A DNA stretch of 64,000 nucleotides from the human T2T-CHM13v2.0 reference genome, Homo sapiens, in assembly GCF_009914755.1 (NCBI RefSeq), contig NC_060935.1; one strand, 5' to 3'. The notes below the pieces were generated by a model that worked only from the letters and a program-made list of their open reading frames with translations, searched no databases and was not told where the DNA came from. Below, in pieces: positions 8,151-61,963 of the stretch; position 1 is the first letter of the stretch; each line of letters starts with the position of its first letter. Position numbers and translations under genes: made by a program.

Positions 8151-8372
8151 TGACACCCTCAGTCATGCATCACCCAGAGAAAGGCACCTAGTCCTCTGCT
8201 CTCCCTCATGGGCTCTTATTGCAGAGACAGGGCCCACAGACCACAATGAGGAATAAAGTCATGTGGAGCCAGTGATTAGGAAGGGGTCAAAAGAATGTCA
8301 AACCAAGTGTAAAGTTTGGAGGTAAAGGAAATTCTGTGTTTTCAAATATGTTTGCCTAATAGTTAGCAAATC

Positions 8373-8840
8373 TTTTTTTTTTTTTTTATACTGGGAACAT
8401 TAAACCATTTTTTTTTATTATACTTTAAGTTTTAGGGTACATGTGCACATTGTGCAGGTTAGTTACATATGTATACATGTGCCATGCTGGTGCACTGCAC
8501 CCACTAACTCGTCATCTAGCATTAGGTATATCTCCCAATGCTATCCCTCCCCCCTCCCCCCACCCCACCACAGTCCCCAGAGTGTGATATTCCCCTTCCT
8601 GTGTCCAAAGACTTGGAACCAACCCAAATGTCCAACAATGATAGACTGGATTAAGAAAATGTGGCACATATACACCATGGAATACTATGCAGCCATAAAA
8701 AATGATGAGTTCATGTCCTTTGTAGGGACATGGATGAAATTGGAAATCATCATTCTCAGTAAACTATCGCAAGAACAAAAAACCAAACACCGCATATCCT
8801 CACTCATAGGTGGGAATTGAACAATGAGATCACATGGACA
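8373..8840 (-). mobile_element. Short L1PA2/non-Ta L1HS with 5' inversion and 20-nt 3' transduction
   Basis: TSD atagttagcaaatctttt at 8359-8376 and 8840-8857; T15, 20 unique nt, T9, L1 3' end on minus (8417-8607), inverted segment on plus (8606-8840); GAG (non-Ta) diagnostic. Confidence 0.93.
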
Positions 8841-9354
8841 TAGTTAGCAAATCTTTTAAGTTAAAAATTTTTCCCTTCTCTTTTAATTCCCCTGATTTTT
8901 ATTTCTAATTTTGTGTATTATATTGTGTTTTATTTATTTTATTCAGGAGTAAGTAAGCCAGTGACTTACCAATTTTTTTCCCTAAAGAAATAGCTCTTGT
9001 CTTTGTTACTTCAATTCCTACTCTATTTTCTAATTTATTGTGTTCTATTTTTATTTTACTAATTAATTCTTTTTATTTTACTAATTCTTTTTTCTAGTTT
9101 AATTTTACTAATTAATTAATAAATTAATTTATTGCTTTCTATTTTTATGTTACTAATTCATTATTTTATTTTACTAATTCTTTTTTCTGTGATTCAGATT
9201 CATTTCACTTTATTTTTAATTTGTTTAATTTAGTGCTTAATTCATTCATTTTATTCTCGTTTAATAATATAAGGTTGTACGATTATGAGTCTTTTTGCCT
9301 GCACACTTCTGACTGTATTACAATGGGTCCAATATGTAAAGATTCCACTCTCCC

Positions 9355-17127: not shown

Positions 17128-18751
<1,624 letters not shown>

Positions 18752-37869: not shown

Positions 37870-39254
37870 TATCAAATCTGCTAACATTACTGGGTGTGCA
37901 TGCACTCAAGGCGATGCTGACATGCCAACCCCCTGCTGCCTTGGCCCCCTCCAGACTTTGGACACCGAAGAGCATGGGAGGGAGGCCAAGCAGGTGCTGA
38001 GGGAGGGAGGCTTGGCATGGGCCTGCAGGCTCTCCTCTGCATGAATAGCTTGGGTGCCATGGATGACATGATTGATGGTGGCAGGAGCCGGACAGGCCCC
38101 TGGGAAGAAATGGGAGGGTGCCTGGTGAAGCCCCACCTTCAAGCCAGAAATGGCCTGAAGGATGGGGGCTGGGCTGTAAGTTCTGGGTGGAGTCTGCAGC
38201 CTGGAGGGAGAACTTATGGTACTTTTTCCAGGCCTGCCCATGGCCTTGCATGGACCAATCAGCACATACTACCTTCTTCTGAAACCCATAAAAAGTCTGG
38301 ACTCTGCCAGACTCACAGAGACATCCAGACTACCAGCTGTGAGAAGGAGCTACCCACTTCAAATCTCCTCTCTGTCGAGAGCTAGACACTTGTCGGGATG
38401 AGCTGGCTGTGGAAAGTAGCTATCCACTCCAGGTCTCCTCTCTGCTGAGAGCTAGACTTGTTGGGATGACCCGCCTGTGGAAAGGAGCTACCCACTCCAG
38501 GTTTCCTCTCTACTGTGAGCTGGACACTTGTTGGGACAACCTGCCTGCAGAAAGTAGCTACCCATTTTGGTTCTCCTAAGAGCTGTTCTGTTGCTCAATG
38601 AAGCTCCTCTCTGCCTTGCTCACCCTCCAGTTGACTGCGTACCTCATTATTCTTGGACATGGGACAAGAAAATCAGGACCTGCCTAATGGTAGGACTGAA
38701 AAACCTGTAACACAAACAGGGCTAATACATGCCTCCTCACTCTCCATGTTGTGGGTGACAAGAAGGAAAGAAGAGCTTTGGCCCTTTGGGGATCTTAGAC
38801 CTAGGGGCTTCCTGAGCCAGGGCTGTGACACCCTCTTTGGGGCTCTGTATTTCCTGGCATCTCCAAGCTTCTGGGCACCACCATGTCCCCCTTGTCCAGA
38901 TGTGGGTGCCCACAGTGGAAGCTGTGTATGGTACATCTCACCCAGCCACAGCCTCTCATGTAGCTGGCACCTGTGCCAGTGCCTGGAGCTGCCTGTTCTG
39001 CCACAGCAACCAGCGTGCCTGGCTTTGCACAGTGGCCTCACCCCATGCTTGCTCACTCATGTACCCCTTGTCACTCTGTGCCTGACTTGCCCTTGGCAGT
39101 TATGGAATCTGGGCTGGTAGCAAAAGCCTAGCACAGGCTGCTGGGCTGAGTGGGCGAATTGAGCCAAGTGGGCCTGGTCAATACTCAGGTATAAAGTGCC
39201 ACTGGCCACAGAGGTTTCTGGCTGGGGAAGTGACATCACAAGGACCCCATGAGA
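37870..39254 (+). mobile_element. MER52 (A-like) ERV1 LTR, 5'-truncated
   Basis: gccttggccccctccagactttgg, catggaccaatcagca, ~70-bp internal repeats, terminal gaggtttctggctgg. Confidence 0.8.
38330..38585 (+). repeat. About four ~70-bp tandem units within MER52
   Basis: Recurrent gaaag(g/t)agctacccact...ctcctctct...gagct(a/g)gacacttgt. Confidence 0.8.
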
Positions 39255-53800: not shown

Positions 53801-55527
53801 AGACGTTCTAGATCACAGAAGTTTATCCAGAAAAGATCTAGAACTGACAGGAAGAAAGAAATAAAGACTTCCTCTTCCATTCTGGATACTTTATAGGAAT
53901 AAAGAAGAAAGAGGAAAAGAATGCACATTTCTTATTTCCCTATGCACCTCCTGCAATGCTCTACCTCAGAGTGGAAAAAGGGGATACAGAAGCAGAAACA
54001 TCCAGATTTGTTCCTGAGAGCATCATCACATGCAGTACTTTTCTCTAGGCATCCTTAGAAGGTGCACCTTCTAAGATGCTTTTGGAAAAGATCTTCATGA
54101 GACAACTTGGAACGTAGTGTAGGATGATAGTGCAGCAGCATCAATGGAGGTAGGCGGTAGATAATTACAGGCAGTGCTGCTGCTCCCTATGTCCTGCTTG
54201 TGGAATGCAGGGGGCTTGGAAATTCTCACACGCCCTGGTGAGGGGGTCCAGAGGGGATGCGAATAACCATGGATTGGCAGAAGACTATGCATATCTAAAG
54301 ATGCCTCTGCAAATAGGAATTTCAAGAAAAAGGCTGGATAATTTTGACTTCTTCTTTCCCCCTGTAGCTAGCTAACTTTCCCATTTCATTTGGGACTTAC
54401 TTGTCTAATGTTCTACTTTTATTTCTTGACTAGTTTTGTCAGAAAAAGTTATCTTTTAGAAACAAAATTATTATTTGATTTTCTTTGTCTTCTCAGTATT
54501 TTTTATTTTTGTTTCGATCATTATTATTGCCAACCTTCTTATTTCTTTGAATTTGTACTGCTATTATTTTCCCCAATTTTTTATTTTAATGCTTATCTCA
54601 TTTGTTTTCATTCACTTTTGCTCTTTAATAAGTGGATTTAAAACTATAAAGTTGCCTCTAAGGACTGCTTTATCTGTGTTTCACAAATGCCATTCTGTTC
54701 TAACCACACTGTTAAATTTCCTTAATTTTGGCAGGGATGTGAGATTATATATGTGTGTGTGCATTACATAAATATAAATTATACTTTCTTGGTTATTTTA
54801 TAATATATATTTTCTAGATTGATATATTAAACATGTTCTTTTTTAGCGATTTTAAAATATTTTTGCATTATAGATTAAGACTGTAGTCTATATAATTTTT
54901 ATTCTTTGGATATCACTGAGTTTACTTTGGTTGCCTATTATATGGTCAATTATTGTTAATGTCTCATATGTAAATGAACTAACGTGAATTTCCCATTAGT
55001 TGGGTGTAATATTCTATATCTATTTGTTCATTTATCATTTAACAATATTGAAATTATTGAGTTTTTTATCCAAATCTCTCTCTTTGCGTATTTTGTATCT
55101 GCTTGGTCTATTAGTTTCTGAGTGGGTATATTAAATCTCCAAATAAAATTGCTGCTTTGTTAACTTGGGGCTATATTGTTAGGGGTATTTATGATATATA
55201 TTTTTTCTTTGCATATATTTGAGGGATATAAGGGAAGCTTTATTGCATAGATAAATCGAGTAACTGTGAAGTCTGGGCTTTCAGTGTATCCATCACCCGA
55301 ATAGTGTACATTGTACCCATTAAATAATGTCTCATCCCTCACTCCTCTCCCACTTTGCAACCCTTCCAAGTCTACAATATCTATTATTCACATACTATGT
55401 CCATATGTACACATTATTTAGCTCTCAATTTCAAGTGAGAATATGTGGCTTTTGACTTTCTATTTCTGAGTTGTTTCACTTAAGATTTTGTCCTCCAGTT
55501 CCATTCATATTGCTGCAAGTGACATAA

Positions 55528-55825
<298 letters not shown>

Positions 55826-57634
55826 AATTTCATTATTTTTTATGGCTGAATAGTATTTCATTGTATAAATATACCACAGATTCTTTATCCAGTCATCCAC
55901 TGATAGACATGTAGGTTGATTCTACATCTTTGCTATTGTGTATAGTGCTGTGATTAACATATGTGTCCAAGTATCTTTTTGATATAATGTTTTATTTTCC
56001 TTTGAGTAGATACTAGTAGTGGGATTGCTGGATAGAATTATAATTCTTAGTTCTTTGAGAAATCTCCATATGGTTTTCCATAGAGGTTGTACTAATTTAC
56101 ATTCCCACAGTGTATAGGAATTCCCTTTTCTCTGCATCCTCACCAACATCTGTTATATTTTTACTTTTTAATATTAGCTATTCTGACTGGTATAAAACAG
56201 TACTTCATGGTTTTAATTTGCATTTCTCTAAAGATTAGTTATGTTGAGCATAAAACACTATCTCATGGTTTTCATAATTGTTTTATAACCAATCATCTTG
56301 ATTTTAACTAATCATCTCATTATTTCTCTGATGATGAGTTATGTTGAGCATTAAACAGTATCTCATGTTTTTTACATTGTTAAGTATAAAACAATACCTC
56401 ATGGTTTTAATCTGCATTTCTCTGATGATTAGTTATGTTGAAATTGGCCATTTATATGTCTTCTTTTGAAAAATATTGATTTATGTCCTTTGCTCACTTT
56501 TTAGTGGGGTTATCGTGTTGTTGAGTTGATAGAATTGCTTATAAATTATGAATATTAGTCCCTTTTCAGATGAATAGTTTGCAAATATTTTCTCACATTT
56601 TGCAGGTTATTTTTTCACTCTTTTGATTATCTTTTTACTGTGCAAAAGCTTTTTAGTTTAATTAAGTCCTTTTTGTCTATTTTTGGTTTTGTTAGTTTTG
56701 CTTTTGAGGTCTTAGTCATGAATTCTTCACCTAGACCAATGTTGATGAGTTTTTCCTAGGTTTTCTTCCACTATTTTTGTAGTTTCAGGGCTAACAATTA
56801 AGTTTTAATCCATCTTGAGTTAACTTTTATATATGGTGAGAGACAGGGGTCTATTTTCATCCTTCTGCATATGATAATTCAATTTTCCCAGAGTCATTAA
56901 TTGAAATGGGCGTCCTTTTCTCAGTGTATGTTTTTGTTGACTTTGTTAAACATCAATTGACTGTATATATGTGGCTTTATTTCTGGGCTCTCTATTCGGC
57001 TCCATTGATTCATGTGTCTGTTTTTAAACCAGTACCATGCTGTTTGGGTTACTATAGCCTTGTAGTATAGTTTGAAGTCAGGTAATGTGATATTTCTGCC
57101 TTTGTTCTTTTTGCTTAGGATTGCTTTGCCTATTCTGGCTCTTTTTTGATTCCATATGAATTTTAGGATATTTTTCAAATTCTATAAATAATGACATTGG
57201 TATTTTGATAGGGATTGCCATTGAATTTGTAGATTGCTTTGGGCTATATGGCCATTTTAATAACATTAATAATTTTGATCCATTAGCATGGGATTTTTTC
57301 CATTTCTTTGTGTCATTTACAATTTATTTCATCAGTGTTTTGTAGCTTTCTTTGTGGAGATCTTTTACTTTATTGGTTAAGTATATTCCTAGACATTTTG
57401 TGTAGCTATTGTAAATGGGATTGACTTCTTGATTTGGTTCTCAGCTTAATTGTTACTGGTGTATAGAAATGCTACTGATTGTTGTATGTTAATTTTGTAT
57501 CCTGAAACTTACTGAATTCATTTATTAAATCTAACAGTTTTTTTAGGAGTCTTTAGGGTTTTCTAGGTATAAGATAATATCATCAGCAAACAGAGATAAT
57601 TTGACTTCTTTTCCCATTTGGATGTCTTTTATTT

Positions 57635-57957
57635 ATTTCTTTTTTTTTCTTTTTCTTTTCTTTTTTTTTTTTTGAGGCTGAGTCTCACTCTGTTGCCCAG
57701 GCTGGAGTGCAGTGGCACCATCTTGGTTTGCTGCAAGCTCCGACTCCCAAGTTCACGCCATTCTCTTGCCTCAGCCTCCCAAGTAGCTGGGACTATAGGC
57801 GCCCGCCATCATGCCCGGCCAACTTTTTTTGTATTTTTTAGTAGAGATGGGGTTTCACCGTGTTAGCCAGGATGGTCCCGATCTCCTGACCTAATGATCT
57901 GTCCGCCTCAGCCTCCCAAAGTGCTGGGATTACAGGCGTGAGCCACTGTGCCCAGCC
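57635..57957 (-). mobile_element. AluY (older, CpG-decayed)
   Basis: AluY diagnostics; 13-bp TSD atgtcttttattt at 57622 and 57958. Confidence 0.9.
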
Positions 57958-58912
57958 ATGTCTTTTATTTCTTTATCTTGCCTGATTGCTCTGGCTAGAA
58001 CTTCCAGCCAGAAGTTGAATATGAGTGGTAAAAATGGGCATCTTTGTCTTGTTCCAGCTTTTAGGGGTAATGCTTTCAACTTTTCTTTGTTCAGTATGAT
58101 GTTGGCTGTGGATTTGTCATATGTGGCCTTTATTATTTTCAGATATGTTTCTTCTATCCCTAGTTTGTTGAGGGTTTTTATCATGAAGGGATGATACATT
58201 TTGTGAAATGAGTTTTTCTGCATCTATTGAGATGACCATATGGTTTTTGTCCTTAATTCTGTTTCTGTGATGAATCACTTAACACACATTTATTGATTTG
58301 TGCATGTTGAATCATCCTTGCATTTCCGAAATAAAACTCACTTGATAATGGTGTATTACATTTTTGACGTGCTATTGTATTAGGTTTGCTAGTATTTTGT
58401 TGTGAATTTTTACATTTATCTTCATCAGCATTATTGGTCTGTAGTTTTCTTTTGTTGTGTCCTGTCTGGCTTTGATATCAGGGTGATAGTGGCTTCACAA
58501 ACTGAGCTAAGGAAGATTTCCTCCTCCTCAAATTTTTTGAACTGTTTGAGGAGGATTGGTACCAGTTCTTCTTTGTATGTCTGGTAGAATTTGGCTGTGG
58601 ATCCATCTGGTCTTCAGCTTTTTTGGATGGGAGATTTTAAATTACTGACTCAATGCAACTATTTATTATTGGTCTGTTCAGAATTTCTACTTCTTCCTGG
58701 TTCAATATTGGGAGTTTGTATGTTTTCAGGAATTTAACCATTTCTCTAGGTTTTCTAGTTTGTGAGTGTATAGTTGTTCATAGCAGTCTCTGATGATTTT
58801 TTGTGCTTCTGTGGTATTTGTTATAATGTCTCCTTTTAAATTTTGATTATGTTTATTTGAGTCATCTGCCTTCTTTAATTTTTGATTGTATTTATTTGAG
58901 TCTTCTCTCTTC

Positions 58913-60064
58913 TTTTTTTTTTTTTTTTTTTGGAGGAAGTCATTTTATTCAAAATTTTTACATACTCACTCAGGCCAACAAATGTTTCAAGAACTTTTTA
59001 CCTGCCAGGCACTATGCTGAGTAATTAGGTTAACATAAGTGAGACAAACTGACATGGTGCTTTGCCCTCATGGGGTTTACAATCTTGTAAAAAGACAGGT
59101 TTAAATCAAATAATCATACAATTAAGTACAAGCCTTGGTAATTGTTACAAAATGTAGGGTACATGAGGGCATGTAACAATTGAGAAAGCAATGTTTTTAC
59201 CGTAAATTGAAGGAATAGAAGTGGGTGATGAGAAAGAGATTTCTTTTTTTTTATTTTTTATTATACTTTAAGTTTTAGGGTACATGTGCACAATGTTCAG
59301 GTTAGTTACATGTGATGTATACATGTGACATGCTGGTGTGCTGCACCCACTAACTGGTCATCTAGCATTAGGTATATCTCCCAATGCTATCCCTCCCCCC
59401 TCCCCTCACCCCACAACAGTCCCCAGAGTGTGATGTTCCCCTTCCTGTGTCCATGTGTTCTCATTGTTCAATTCCCACTTATGAGTGAGAATATGCGGTG
59501 TTTGTTTTTTTGTTCTTGCAATAGTTTACTGAGAATGATGATTTCCAATTTCATCCATGTCCCTACAAAGGACATGAACTCATCATTTTTTATGGCTGCA
59601 TAGTATTCCATGGTGTATATGTGCCACATTTTCTTAATCCAGTCTATCACTGTTGGACATTTGGGTTGGTTCCAAGTCTTTGCTATTGTGCATAGTGCCG
59701 CAATAAACGTACGTGTGCATGTGTCTTTATAGCAGCATGATTTATAGTCCTTTGGGTATATACCCAGTAATGGGATGGCTGGGTCAAATGGTATTTCTAG
59801 TTCTAGATCCCTGAAGAATCACCACACTGACTTCCACAATGGTTGAACTAGTTTATCGTCCCACCAACAGTGTAAAAGTGTTCCTATTTCTCCACATCCT
59901 CTCCAGCACCTGTTGTTTCCTGACTTTTTAATGATTGCCATTCTAACTGGTGTGAGATGATATCTCATTGTGGTTTTGATTTGCATTTCTCTGATGGCCA
60001 GTGACGGTGAGCATTTTTTCATGTGTTTTTTGGCTGCATAAATGTCTTCTTTTGAGAAGTGTCT
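58913..60064 (-). mobile_element. L1PA3-like 5'-truncated insertion with 312-bp 3' transduction
   Basis: 15-bp TSD gtcttctctcttctt at 58900 and 60061; T19, transduced 58932-59243, T-rich source tail, L1 body 59260-60064. Confidence 0.93.
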
Positions 60065-61963
60065 TCTCTCTTCTTAGTCTAGCTAGTGGATTATCAATTT
60101 TGTTTATCTTTTCAAAGAACAAGCTTTTAGATTCTTGATCCTTTGAATTTTTGGTCTCAATTTCATTTAGTTCTAACCTGATCTTTGTTTATTTTTGTCT
60201 GTGAGCTTTGGATTTGATTTGTTCTTTTTTGCTAGTTCCTTGAGGTGCAATGTTAAGTTGTTAATTTGTGATTTTTTTAAGATTATTTGATGTAGATATT
60301 TAGTGCTGTAAACTTTCCTCTTAGCACTGCTCTTGCAGTATTCCAGAGGTTTCAGTATGTTGTGTTTCCATTTTCATTCATTTAAAAAATTTCCATCTCG
60401 ATTTCATTTGTAAGATAACTTAGAATCATATTGTTTCATTTTTACATATTTGTATAGTTTTATGAGTTCCTTTTGGTATTGACTTCTAGTTTTATTCCAC
60501 TGTGGCTTGAGAAGATATTTGATATGATTTTGACTTTTTAAACTTCATTGAAACTTGTTTTATGACCTAACATATCATATATATTGGAGCATGAGGAGAA
60601 GATTGTATATTCTGTGGTTGTTGCATAGAATGTTCTGCAAATGTCTGTTAGGTCCATTTGGTCTAAAGTCCAATTTAAATGTAGTGCTTCTTTGTTGATA
60701 CTCTGTCTACTGATGTGAGTGGGGTGTTGAAGTCCTCCACTATTATTTTATTGCTATCTGTTTCTTTAGGTCTAGAAATATTTATTTTATGAATCTGAGT
60801 ACTCCTGTGCTGGGTGTATTTATGTTTAGAATTGTTGTATCCTCTTGTTGAATTGATCCTTTATCATTATATAAGGTCATTCTTTTTCTTTTTTTAACTG
60901 CTTTTGATTTAAAACCTGTTTTATATAAGTATAGTTACTGCTGTTCACTTCTGGTTTCCATTTGCATGGAATATCTTTTTCTCCCCTTTACCTCCAGTCT
61001 GTGTGTCTTCACCAGCAAGGTGGGTTTCTTGTAAGTAGGATATAGTTGGATCCAATCTGCCAACCTATATCTTTTAAGTGGAGCATTTAATACATTTATG
61101 TTCAAAGTTAATATCGATATGTGAAGTTTTGTTCTTGTCATAATGTTAATTGATTTCTAATTGGTTGTAAATTATTTGGTGTGTGTGTGTGTCTGTGTGT
61201 GCCTGTCTTTGTAGTTTGGTGGAGTTCTCTCATGTTGCCAGTTGATTTCTTTCTCTTCCTTTTTTGTATAATTGTTTCATAGGCTTATGAGTTTTATACT
61301 TTCATGTATATTTATAATGGAGAATATTGACCTTTTGTTTCCATGTTTAGAATTCCTTTGAGCATTTCTTTTAGAACTGGTCTACTGGTGATGAATTCCC
61401 TGAGCATTTGCTTGTCTGGGAAGTAATTTAATTTCTCCTTCATTTATGAATCTTATTTTAGCAGGTATAAAATTTATGGTTGACAGTTTTTGTCTTTAAG
61501 CACTCTTAAAATTGATTTCAGTGTTTCCGGCTTGAAGTTTCCTGCTGAGAAGTTCACTGTTAGTCTGATGGGTGACTAGACACTTTTGCTGATTTTAGCA
61601 TTTTTTCTTTCATTTTGACTTTAGACAGTCTGACAACTACAGGTCATGGTGAAATTGGTCTGGCAATATGTTTCTGGTCTTTGTTGCGCCTCTTGTATCC
61701 GGATATCTAAATATCTCGCTAGACTAGTGAAATTGTTTTGTCAATTATTTCCTTAAAAAGGTTTTCTAAACATTTTACTTTTTATTCTCCTTTGGGAATA
61801 CTAATAGTGTACAAGTTCAGTCACTTTATGTAGTCCCATACTTCTAGAAGGCTTTGTTCATTTCTTAAATTCTTTAAAAAATTTTTTTCTGAGACTGGAT
61901 TAATTCAAAAAACCTGTTTCAACTTCTGAGATTCTCTCTTATGCTTAATCTATTGTTGAAACT

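What the first reader, a model, noticed from the sequence alone, without database searches (positions are those of the whole stretch)
58900..60075. L1 3' transduction that moved an ancient L2 fragment into a younger L1
Seen on the minus strand within a 15-bp TSD: ~800 bp of L1PA3-like sequence, its A-rich tail, 312 bp of foreign DNA (59243 to 58932), AATAAA 12 nt before a second A19 tail, and a 4-nt GTCT microhomology at the 5' junction. The foreign DNA looks like an L2 3' end (caacaaatgttt...tgccaggcactatgct...gccctcatggggtttacaatct). L2 became inactive before L1PB4 existed, so this impossible nesting order independently supports transduction. The tag should identify the source locus.
Basis: partly seen in the sequence, partly recalled or inferred. 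Interest (0 to 1): 0.7.

Follow-up and report, generated by a model that had tools for sequence, protein, structure and literature searches.

The report
L1 transduction with a vanished parent
A jumping-gene (L1) copy on chromosome 11 carries 312 bases copied from a spot on chromosome 3 that holds no L1 in this genome, so its parent element was likely lost; this is an ordinary, well-described kind of event.

Summary
On the minus strand a perfect 15-bp target-site duplication encloses four parts: 799 bp of L1 3' end (ORF2 C-terminus plus 3' UTR, about 97% identical to its closest copies), an A-rich tail, a 312-bp tag, and a second A-tail 12 nt after AATAAA. The tag has exactly one other copy, at G000:C3:21352122-21352433, 306 of 312 bases identical. 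That donor site has no L1 upstream and no poly(A). The tag starts at an L1-endonuclease-like site, ends at the first AATAAA downstream, and lies in an old, likely L2, repeat that seems to continue across the junction. Best reading: a 3' transduction from a source L1, roughly 10 My old (4-21, recalled clock), that is absent from this genome and likely never became fixed. No siblings were found. The main rival is capture of a chr3 transcript with no L1 ever at that site (about 10%). L1 3' transductions, including parentless ones, are well described, and two more candidates lie in this window. Subfamily names (L1PA3, L1PB4, L2) rest mostly on recall. No ape genomes could be searched. It is a new member of a known kind; interest is low.

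The parts
60061..60075 (-). 5' copy of the 15-bp target-site duplication; nicked strand reads TTCTT/AG, an L1-endonuclease-type site
60061..60064 (-). 4-nt microhomology shared by the TSD end and the L1 sequence at the 5' truncation point
   Evidence: present in 28 of 29 closest L1 copies
59262..60060 (-). 5'-truncated L1 3' end (ORF2 C-terminus with one in-frame stop at 59819-59821, then 3' UTR); L1PA2/L1PA3 type by recalled diagnostics; carries a 3-nt insertion at 59312-59314 found nowhere else in the genome
59244..59261 (-). first A-rich tail, likely inherited from the source L1
58932..59243 (-). 312-bp tag copied from G000:C3:21352122-21352433 (minus strand), 306/312 identical
58964..59131 (-). 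[quoted passage not shown]
   Evidence: weak mir-28 match; PMC6433296 passages
58944..58949 (-). AATAAA, the first poly(A) signal downstream of the donor junction
58913..58931 (-). second A tail (19 A, 2 of them inside the TSD); not present at the donor site
58900..58914 (-). 3' copy of the target-site duplication
55200..58899 (-). 3' part of the older host L1 (75-79% identical to its best relatives; L1PB/L1MA-like by recall), interrupted by Alus; outer limit approximate
60076..60560 (-). 5' part of the host L1 next to the insertion; its 5' limit was not determined

Best explanation
The insert is a truncated L1 copy plus a 312-bp tag from a chromosome 3 site that holds no L1 in this genome, likely made by read-through (3' transduction) from a source L1 that once sat at that site and was likely lost without becoming fixed. 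Inferred steps: (1) a full-length L1 of roughly L1PA3 age inserted at an endonuclease-like site inside an old L2 remnant on chr3. (2) Transcription ran past its own weak poly(A) signal to the first AATAAA, 295 nt downstream, and the RNA was polyadenylated 12-14 nt further on. (3) Target-primed reverse transcription at a TTCTT/AG site in an older L1 on chr11 copied the tail, the tag, the old tail and 799 nt of L1, then joined through a 4-nt microhomology, leaving a 15-bp TSD. (4) The chr3 allele bearing the source was lost by drift, selection or lineage sorting, while the daughter persisted. Shown directly: the anatomy, the single donor, the absence of L1 and poly(A) at the donor, and the site sequences.
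For: One paralogue only, with homology starting exactly after the L1 tail and ending exactly at the second tail. Three exhaustive 32-34-mer probes at up to 3 mismatches (5' end, middle, 3' end) each find only these 2 loci. The donor flanks are single-copy apart from a local 82% inverted pair, so this is no segmental duplication. The donor junction reads TTTCT/AT on the strand that would be nicked; only 0.4-3.3% of positions in 110 kb of chr3 pass such criteria. The AATAAA is the first in the sense direction, and no A-run follows at the donor, which argues against internal priming. No young L1 lies within C3:21.30-21.41 Mb; the closest is 92-94% identical, about 25 kb away and on the opposite strand. 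Tag divergence of 1.9% (95% CI 0.7-4.1, both copies together) and L1 departure from its relatives of 2.1% (1.2-3.4) are compatible with one event. Donor sites without an L1 are reported in primates (PMC4862182 section 14) and are the majority in dogs, 24 of 27 (PMC13141329 passages).
Against: The source L1 is not observed and its former presence is inferred. The endonuclease-site criteria were chosen after seeing the site, and there are 2 possible registers, so the chance is nearer 1-7% than the raw figures. The site has 2 mismatches to TTTTT/AA. Continuity of the L2 across the donor junction is weakly supported. Only 2 of 20 copies showed significant similarity 5' of it. The profile hit spanning it (53 bits against 46 for the 3' part alone) used 6 copies chosen for the upstream motif, and the 5' part alone gave no hit. 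The donor copy is 41-47 nt longer between the two motifs than those 6 copies. No sibling carries the tag. One haploid human genome and no ape genomes were examined.
Confidence: 0.75

Rival explanations
1. Same transduction, but the source L1 was fixed and later removed precisely on the human line, for example by recombination between its target-site duplications or by conversion from an empty allele.
For: The donor site is clean, with no tail remnant and no duplicated target, as precise removal would leave it. The estimated age could predate the human-chimpanzee-gorilla splits (recalled clock).
Against: A clean site is equally what a never-occupied allele looks like. Precise loss of fixed L1s is rare (recalled), whereas unfixed sources are the usual explanation in print.
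Confidence: 0.08
2. No L1 ever sat on chr3. A polyadenylated RNA from the chr3 region was reverse-transcribed by L1 proteins and either switched template onto an L1 RNA's tail, or inserted later into the A-tail of an existing chr11 L1, with its own TSD hidden among the A's.
For: No L1 at the donor. A-runs flank the tag on both sides (A9 and A17-19) and could hide a pure-A TSD. A real poly(A) signal is used. Retrocopies can mimic transductions (PMC4862182 section 14).
Against: It needs the tag's 5' end to fall by chance on an endonuclease-like site (about 1-7%). It also needs the switch or second insertion to hit exactly the L1 tail. No transcript there was shown (none could be looked for). Partnered 3' transductions are common: 8.8% of polymorphic L1 insertions carry a transduction (PMC12350158 passages).
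Confidence: 0.1
3. The source L1 still segregates in humans and CHM13 simply carries the empty allele.
For: CHM13 is one haplotype, and non-reference sources are known (PMC9311842 passages).
Against: 6 differences in 312 bp and about 2% L1 divergence point to millions of years, far beyond usual human allele ages (recalled). The insert lacks the 3' UTR triplet recalled as marking the active human subfamily, which the L1 at window 17138-18725 does carry.
Confidence: 0.04

Closest known systems
Partnered L1 3' transduction (183 high-confidence L1 cases catalogued in CHM13: bioRxiv 10.1101/2021.07.12.451456; 466 polymorphic L1 transductions: PMC12350158)
   Same: L1 fragment, first tail, foreign tag, poly(A) signal and second tail inside one TSD; donor on another chromosome; tag length within the reported 7-997 nt range (PMC9311842).
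   Different: It is old (about 2% diverged) rather than polymorphic, the tag is itself an ancient repeat, and the donor has no L1.
Parentless transductions (dog: PMC13141329; primate class 1 source loci: PMC4862182)
   Same: The tag maps uniquely to a site with no adjacent L1.
   Different: The published cases are recent, with sources presumed still segregating. Here the source is probably extinct in humans.
L1-mediated retrocopies and template-switch chimeras
   Same: Non-L1 RNA copied by L1 proteins, with poly(A) and a TSD.
   Different: Here the foreign part lies 3' of an intact L1 tail and starts at an endonuclease-like site, which those routes do not predict.

Membership tests
L1 3' transduction | One TSD encloses both the L1 part and the foreign DNA | tested here: met
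L1 3' transduction | Two A-tails with the foreign DNA between them; second tail untemplated and preceded by a poly(A) signal | tested here: met
L1 3' transduction | The tag maps to a second genomic locus that lacks the tail | tested here: met
L1 3' transduction | A source L1 lies directly upstream of the donor, or the donor is its empty site | tested here: inconclusive
   No L1 is present. The junction is endonuclease-like. Former occupancy cannot be shown without other genomes.
L1 3' transduction | Endonuclease-type target site at the new locus, with host sequence continuous across it | tested here: met
   TTCTT/AG. The flanks abut with 15-16 nt overlap in 2 of 3 host relatives once a 39-bp tandem duplication is allowed for; the third is ambiguous.
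LINE-1 | Encodes the ORF2p C-terminus followed by a 3' UTR and tail | tested here: met
   (E 6.5e-71); Pfam gave no match for 2 of 2 pieces
L1PA3 subfamily | Best match to the L1PA3 consensus; 129-bp 5' UTR segment absent from L1PA2 (PMC5860796) | not testable with these tools
   No repeat library, and the 5' UTR is missing. Mean identity to the 29 closest copies is 97.1%. L1PA2 is not excluded.
L2 (LINE-2) 3' end | High-copy, deeply diverged repeat matching the L2 3' consensus | tested here: inconclusive
   High copy and old: 234 against 1, about 62-69% identity to 20 copies under permissive gapped alignment. The motif aligns with the L2-derived mir-28 model only at E 9.3. No consensus library was available, so the name is partly recalled.
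L1PB4 (host) | 3' UTR matches the L1PB4 consensus | not testable with these tools
   An old L1, 75-79% to its best 39 non-self hits; the name is recalled.
Segmental duplication | Homology extends beyond the tag into the flanks | tested here: not met

The most novel reading that the evidence does not exclude
The tag is the only surviving record of a once-active full-length L1 on chr3 that apes still carry at this site but humans have lost cleanly, through precise excision of a fixed element or deep lineage sorting. Mining old parentless tags genome-wide would then give a dated census of vanished source elements.
Probability: 0.15. Interest if true: 0.45.

Novelty: new member of a known kind. 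Interest (0 to 1): 0.17.

Why it matters
As a single locus it matters little: both ends are without annotated genes nearby as far as seen, the tag is non-coding, and the mechanism is textbook. Its use is as a marker. It gives the exact base where a source L1 should be looked for in ape genomes, which tests whether active full-length L1s of that age were mostly lost before fixation or removed later.

Tried and rejected
Segmental duplication or gene conversion: rejected, because homology stops exactly at both tails and the donor flanks are single-copy. Independent L2 insertion: rejected, because the copy is 98% identical to one chr3 locus while L2-like copies are about 65% alike. Internal priming on a genomic A-run: rejected, with 7 A in the next 20 nt and no run. 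A source L1 displaced nearby: none at 95% identity or more in 110 kb. Siblings: none by BLAST or 3 exhaustive probes, 0 of 29 closest L1 copies carry the tag, and the 3-nt L1 insertion is unique. Single-sequence nhmmer found no other L2 copies in the sequence held. The first 280 or so columns of my second profile were Alu-contaminated, so only its 3' half is meaningful. Rfam gave 3 matches, all far below threshold. A hairpin inside the tag is only marginal (z -1.8; 9 of 200 shuffles as good). Searches of the PMC12350158 supplements for the coordinates found nothing, but the control term occurred only once, in prose, so the source tables were probably not among the files read and the result is uninformative. 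No ORF of 100 aa or more in C3:21.40-21.41 Mb. Four papers asked for by id were not held.

Full report
Observation. A 15-mer is repeated exactly at 58900-58914 and 60061-60075; in the whole window it has 2 exact and 1 one-mismatch matches against 0.02 expected. Between the two copies lie 799 bp of L1, an A-rich tail (59244-59261), 312 bp of other DNA (58932-59243) and a run of 19 A (58913-58931), 2 of which belong to the TSD. The L1 part encodes the end of ORF2p with one in-frame stop; the stretch after the stop matches LINE-1 ORF2p residues 1160-1275 in solved structures at E 6.5e-71. Of 6410 candidates, 40 were scored and the best non-self ones are 96-97% identical. Among the 29 fetched, mean identity is 97.1%, and 28 of 29 continue 5' with the same 4 bases that end the TSD, confirming the microhomology. 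The target reads TTCTT/AG on the nicked strand. The host is a much older L1 (75-79% to its best hits). Its two flanks, aligned separately, abut with 15-16 nt overlap in 2 of 3 relatives once a 39-bp tandem duplication beside the site is allowed for; the third was ambiguous.

The donor. A genome search with the tag gave 2 matches from 2 candidates: the window and G000:C3:21352122-21352433, minus strand, with 6 substitutions and no gaps in 312 bp. Homology starts exactly after the first tail and ends exactly at the second. The 801 bp downstream are single-copy, and the 1038 bp upstream match only a local 82% inverted copy, so this is no segmental duplication. Exhaustive probes from the middle, 3' end and 5' end of the tag at up to 3 mismatches each find only these 2 loci. 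None of the 29 closest L1 copies has the tag in its 3' flank, and a 3-nt insertion in the L1's 3' UTR occurs nowhere else. No sibling was found.

The donor has no L1 upstream, no tail remnant and no duplicated target. In C3:21.30-21.41 Mb the closest L1 match is 92-94% identical, about 25 kb away and on the opposite strand. The junction reads TTTCT/AT on the strand an L1 in this orientation would nick, 2 mismatches from TTTTT/AA. Depending on the criterion, 0.4-3.3% of positions pass. The criteria were chosen after seeing the site and 2 registers are possible, so I take the chance as 1-7%. The AATAAA used is the first in the sense direction, at +295, and no A-run follows at the donor, so the second tail was added to an RNA.

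Is the tag L2? A 17-mer from it has 234 genome matches at up to 1 mismatch against 1 for the control. Profiles built from other copies, without the chr3 or chr11 copy, match the tag (45-46 bits). Rfam aligns the same motif to mir-28, but only at E 9.3; mir-28 derives from the L2c 3' end (PMC6433296, passages). L2 is therefore likely but was not tested against a consensus. Continuity of the repeat across the donor junction is weakly supported. One profile hit spans it (53 bits against 46 for the 3' part alone; the 5' part alone gave no hit), but 6 of the 14 training copies were chosen for the upstream motif, and 0 of those 6 matched significantly further 5'. Only 2 of 20 unselected copies matched 5' of the junction (z 4.1 and 2.8). 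The donor spans 218 bp between the two motifs against 171-177 in the 6 copies, which were selected within 162-192. So nothing appears deleted there, and the 41-47 extra bases are unexplained.

Age. The tag differs by 1.9% (95% CI 0.7-4.1) summed over both copies, and the L1 part departs from the majority of its 29 relatives at 17 of 796 sites, 2.1%. With a recalled rate near 1e-9 per site per year this is about 10 My (4-21). That fits the L1PA3-L1PA2 period; PMC4083085 (passages) puts L1PA6 to L1PA3 between 26.8 and 7.6 My. The subfamily call itself is recalled. The 5' UTR feature that separates L1PA3 from L1PA2 (PMC5860796, passages) is missing here.

Mechanism. Most likely (0.75) a full-length L1 at the chr3 junction read through to the first AATAAA, the RNA was reverse-transcribed into chr11 with 5' truncation, and the source allele was lost without fixing. 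Including precise later removal (0.08) and a still-segregating source (0.04), transduction totals about 0.87. The real rival (0.10) is capture of a chr3 RNA with no L1 ever there, by template switch or by a second insertion into the tail with a TSD hidden in the A-runs.

Known or new. Papers seen as passages: bioRxiv 10.1101/2021.07.12.451456 (183 high-confidence L1 3' transductions in CHM13; supplement closed, and its Table S13 may list this locus), PMC9311842, PMC12350158 (466 of 5311 polymorphic L1 insertions; supplement searches uninformative), PMC13141329 (only 3 of 27 dog tags next to an L1) and PMC3024322. PMC4862182 was seen as passages plus section 14: donor L1 found for 3 of 6 human calls, and none within 5 kb for 13 macaque, 9 orangutan and 1 chimpanzee loci. 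My ten searches were by topic, not by coordinate, and none showed this locus; I cannot say it is absent from print. It is a new member of a known kind, and the window holds two more candidates of the same kind. Interest 0.17.

Noticed in passing
window 17138-18725: Young L1 with a 5' inversion inside a perfect 16-bp TSD (17138-17153, 18710-18725). Its A33 tail is followed by an Alu right arm (about 18531-18679) and a second A-tail. Its 3' UTR has the triplet recalled as marking the active human Ta subfamily. It is a candidate second 3' transduction (or an Alu inserted into the tail) and may be polymorphic.
   Followed up: partly
window 8359-8857: Short 5'-inverted L1 inside a 16-18-bp TSD. About 20 bp of non-L1 sequence (about 8388-8408) lies between two A-tails on the minus strand: a candidate third, very short 3' transduction. 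Source not searched.
   Followed up: partly
window 58835-58912: 39-bp tandem duplication in the host L1, 85% identical, directly beside the 3' TSD; its divergence suggests it predates the insertion.
   Followed up: partly
G000:C3:21349084-21349355 and 21352815-21353085 (L047, L046): Inverted pair of 272 bp, 82% identical, about 3.5 kb apart, enclosing the donor site; no other copy was found in the genome search. Likely an old local inverted duplication; unexplained.
   Followed up: partly
L005 (G000:C6:89981096-89981891): Closest L1 relative (97.7%); shares 4 of the insert's 17 departures from the majority, 2 of them seen in no other of the 29 copies. Possibly an untagged sibling or close lineage.
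   Followed up: partly
window 59062-59170: Imperfect inverted repeat inside the tag that folds as a hairpin over the L2-like motif, resembling L2-derived microRNA stems; marginal (z -1.8; mir-28 E 9.3).
   Followed up: partly
window 56190-56441: Repeated segment of about 58-130 bp in the host L1's ORF2 3' region (copies 76-91% alike), an old local duplication.
   Followed up: no
window 38337-38564: 70-bp tandem repeat, 3.3 copies, 81% matches.
   Followed up: no
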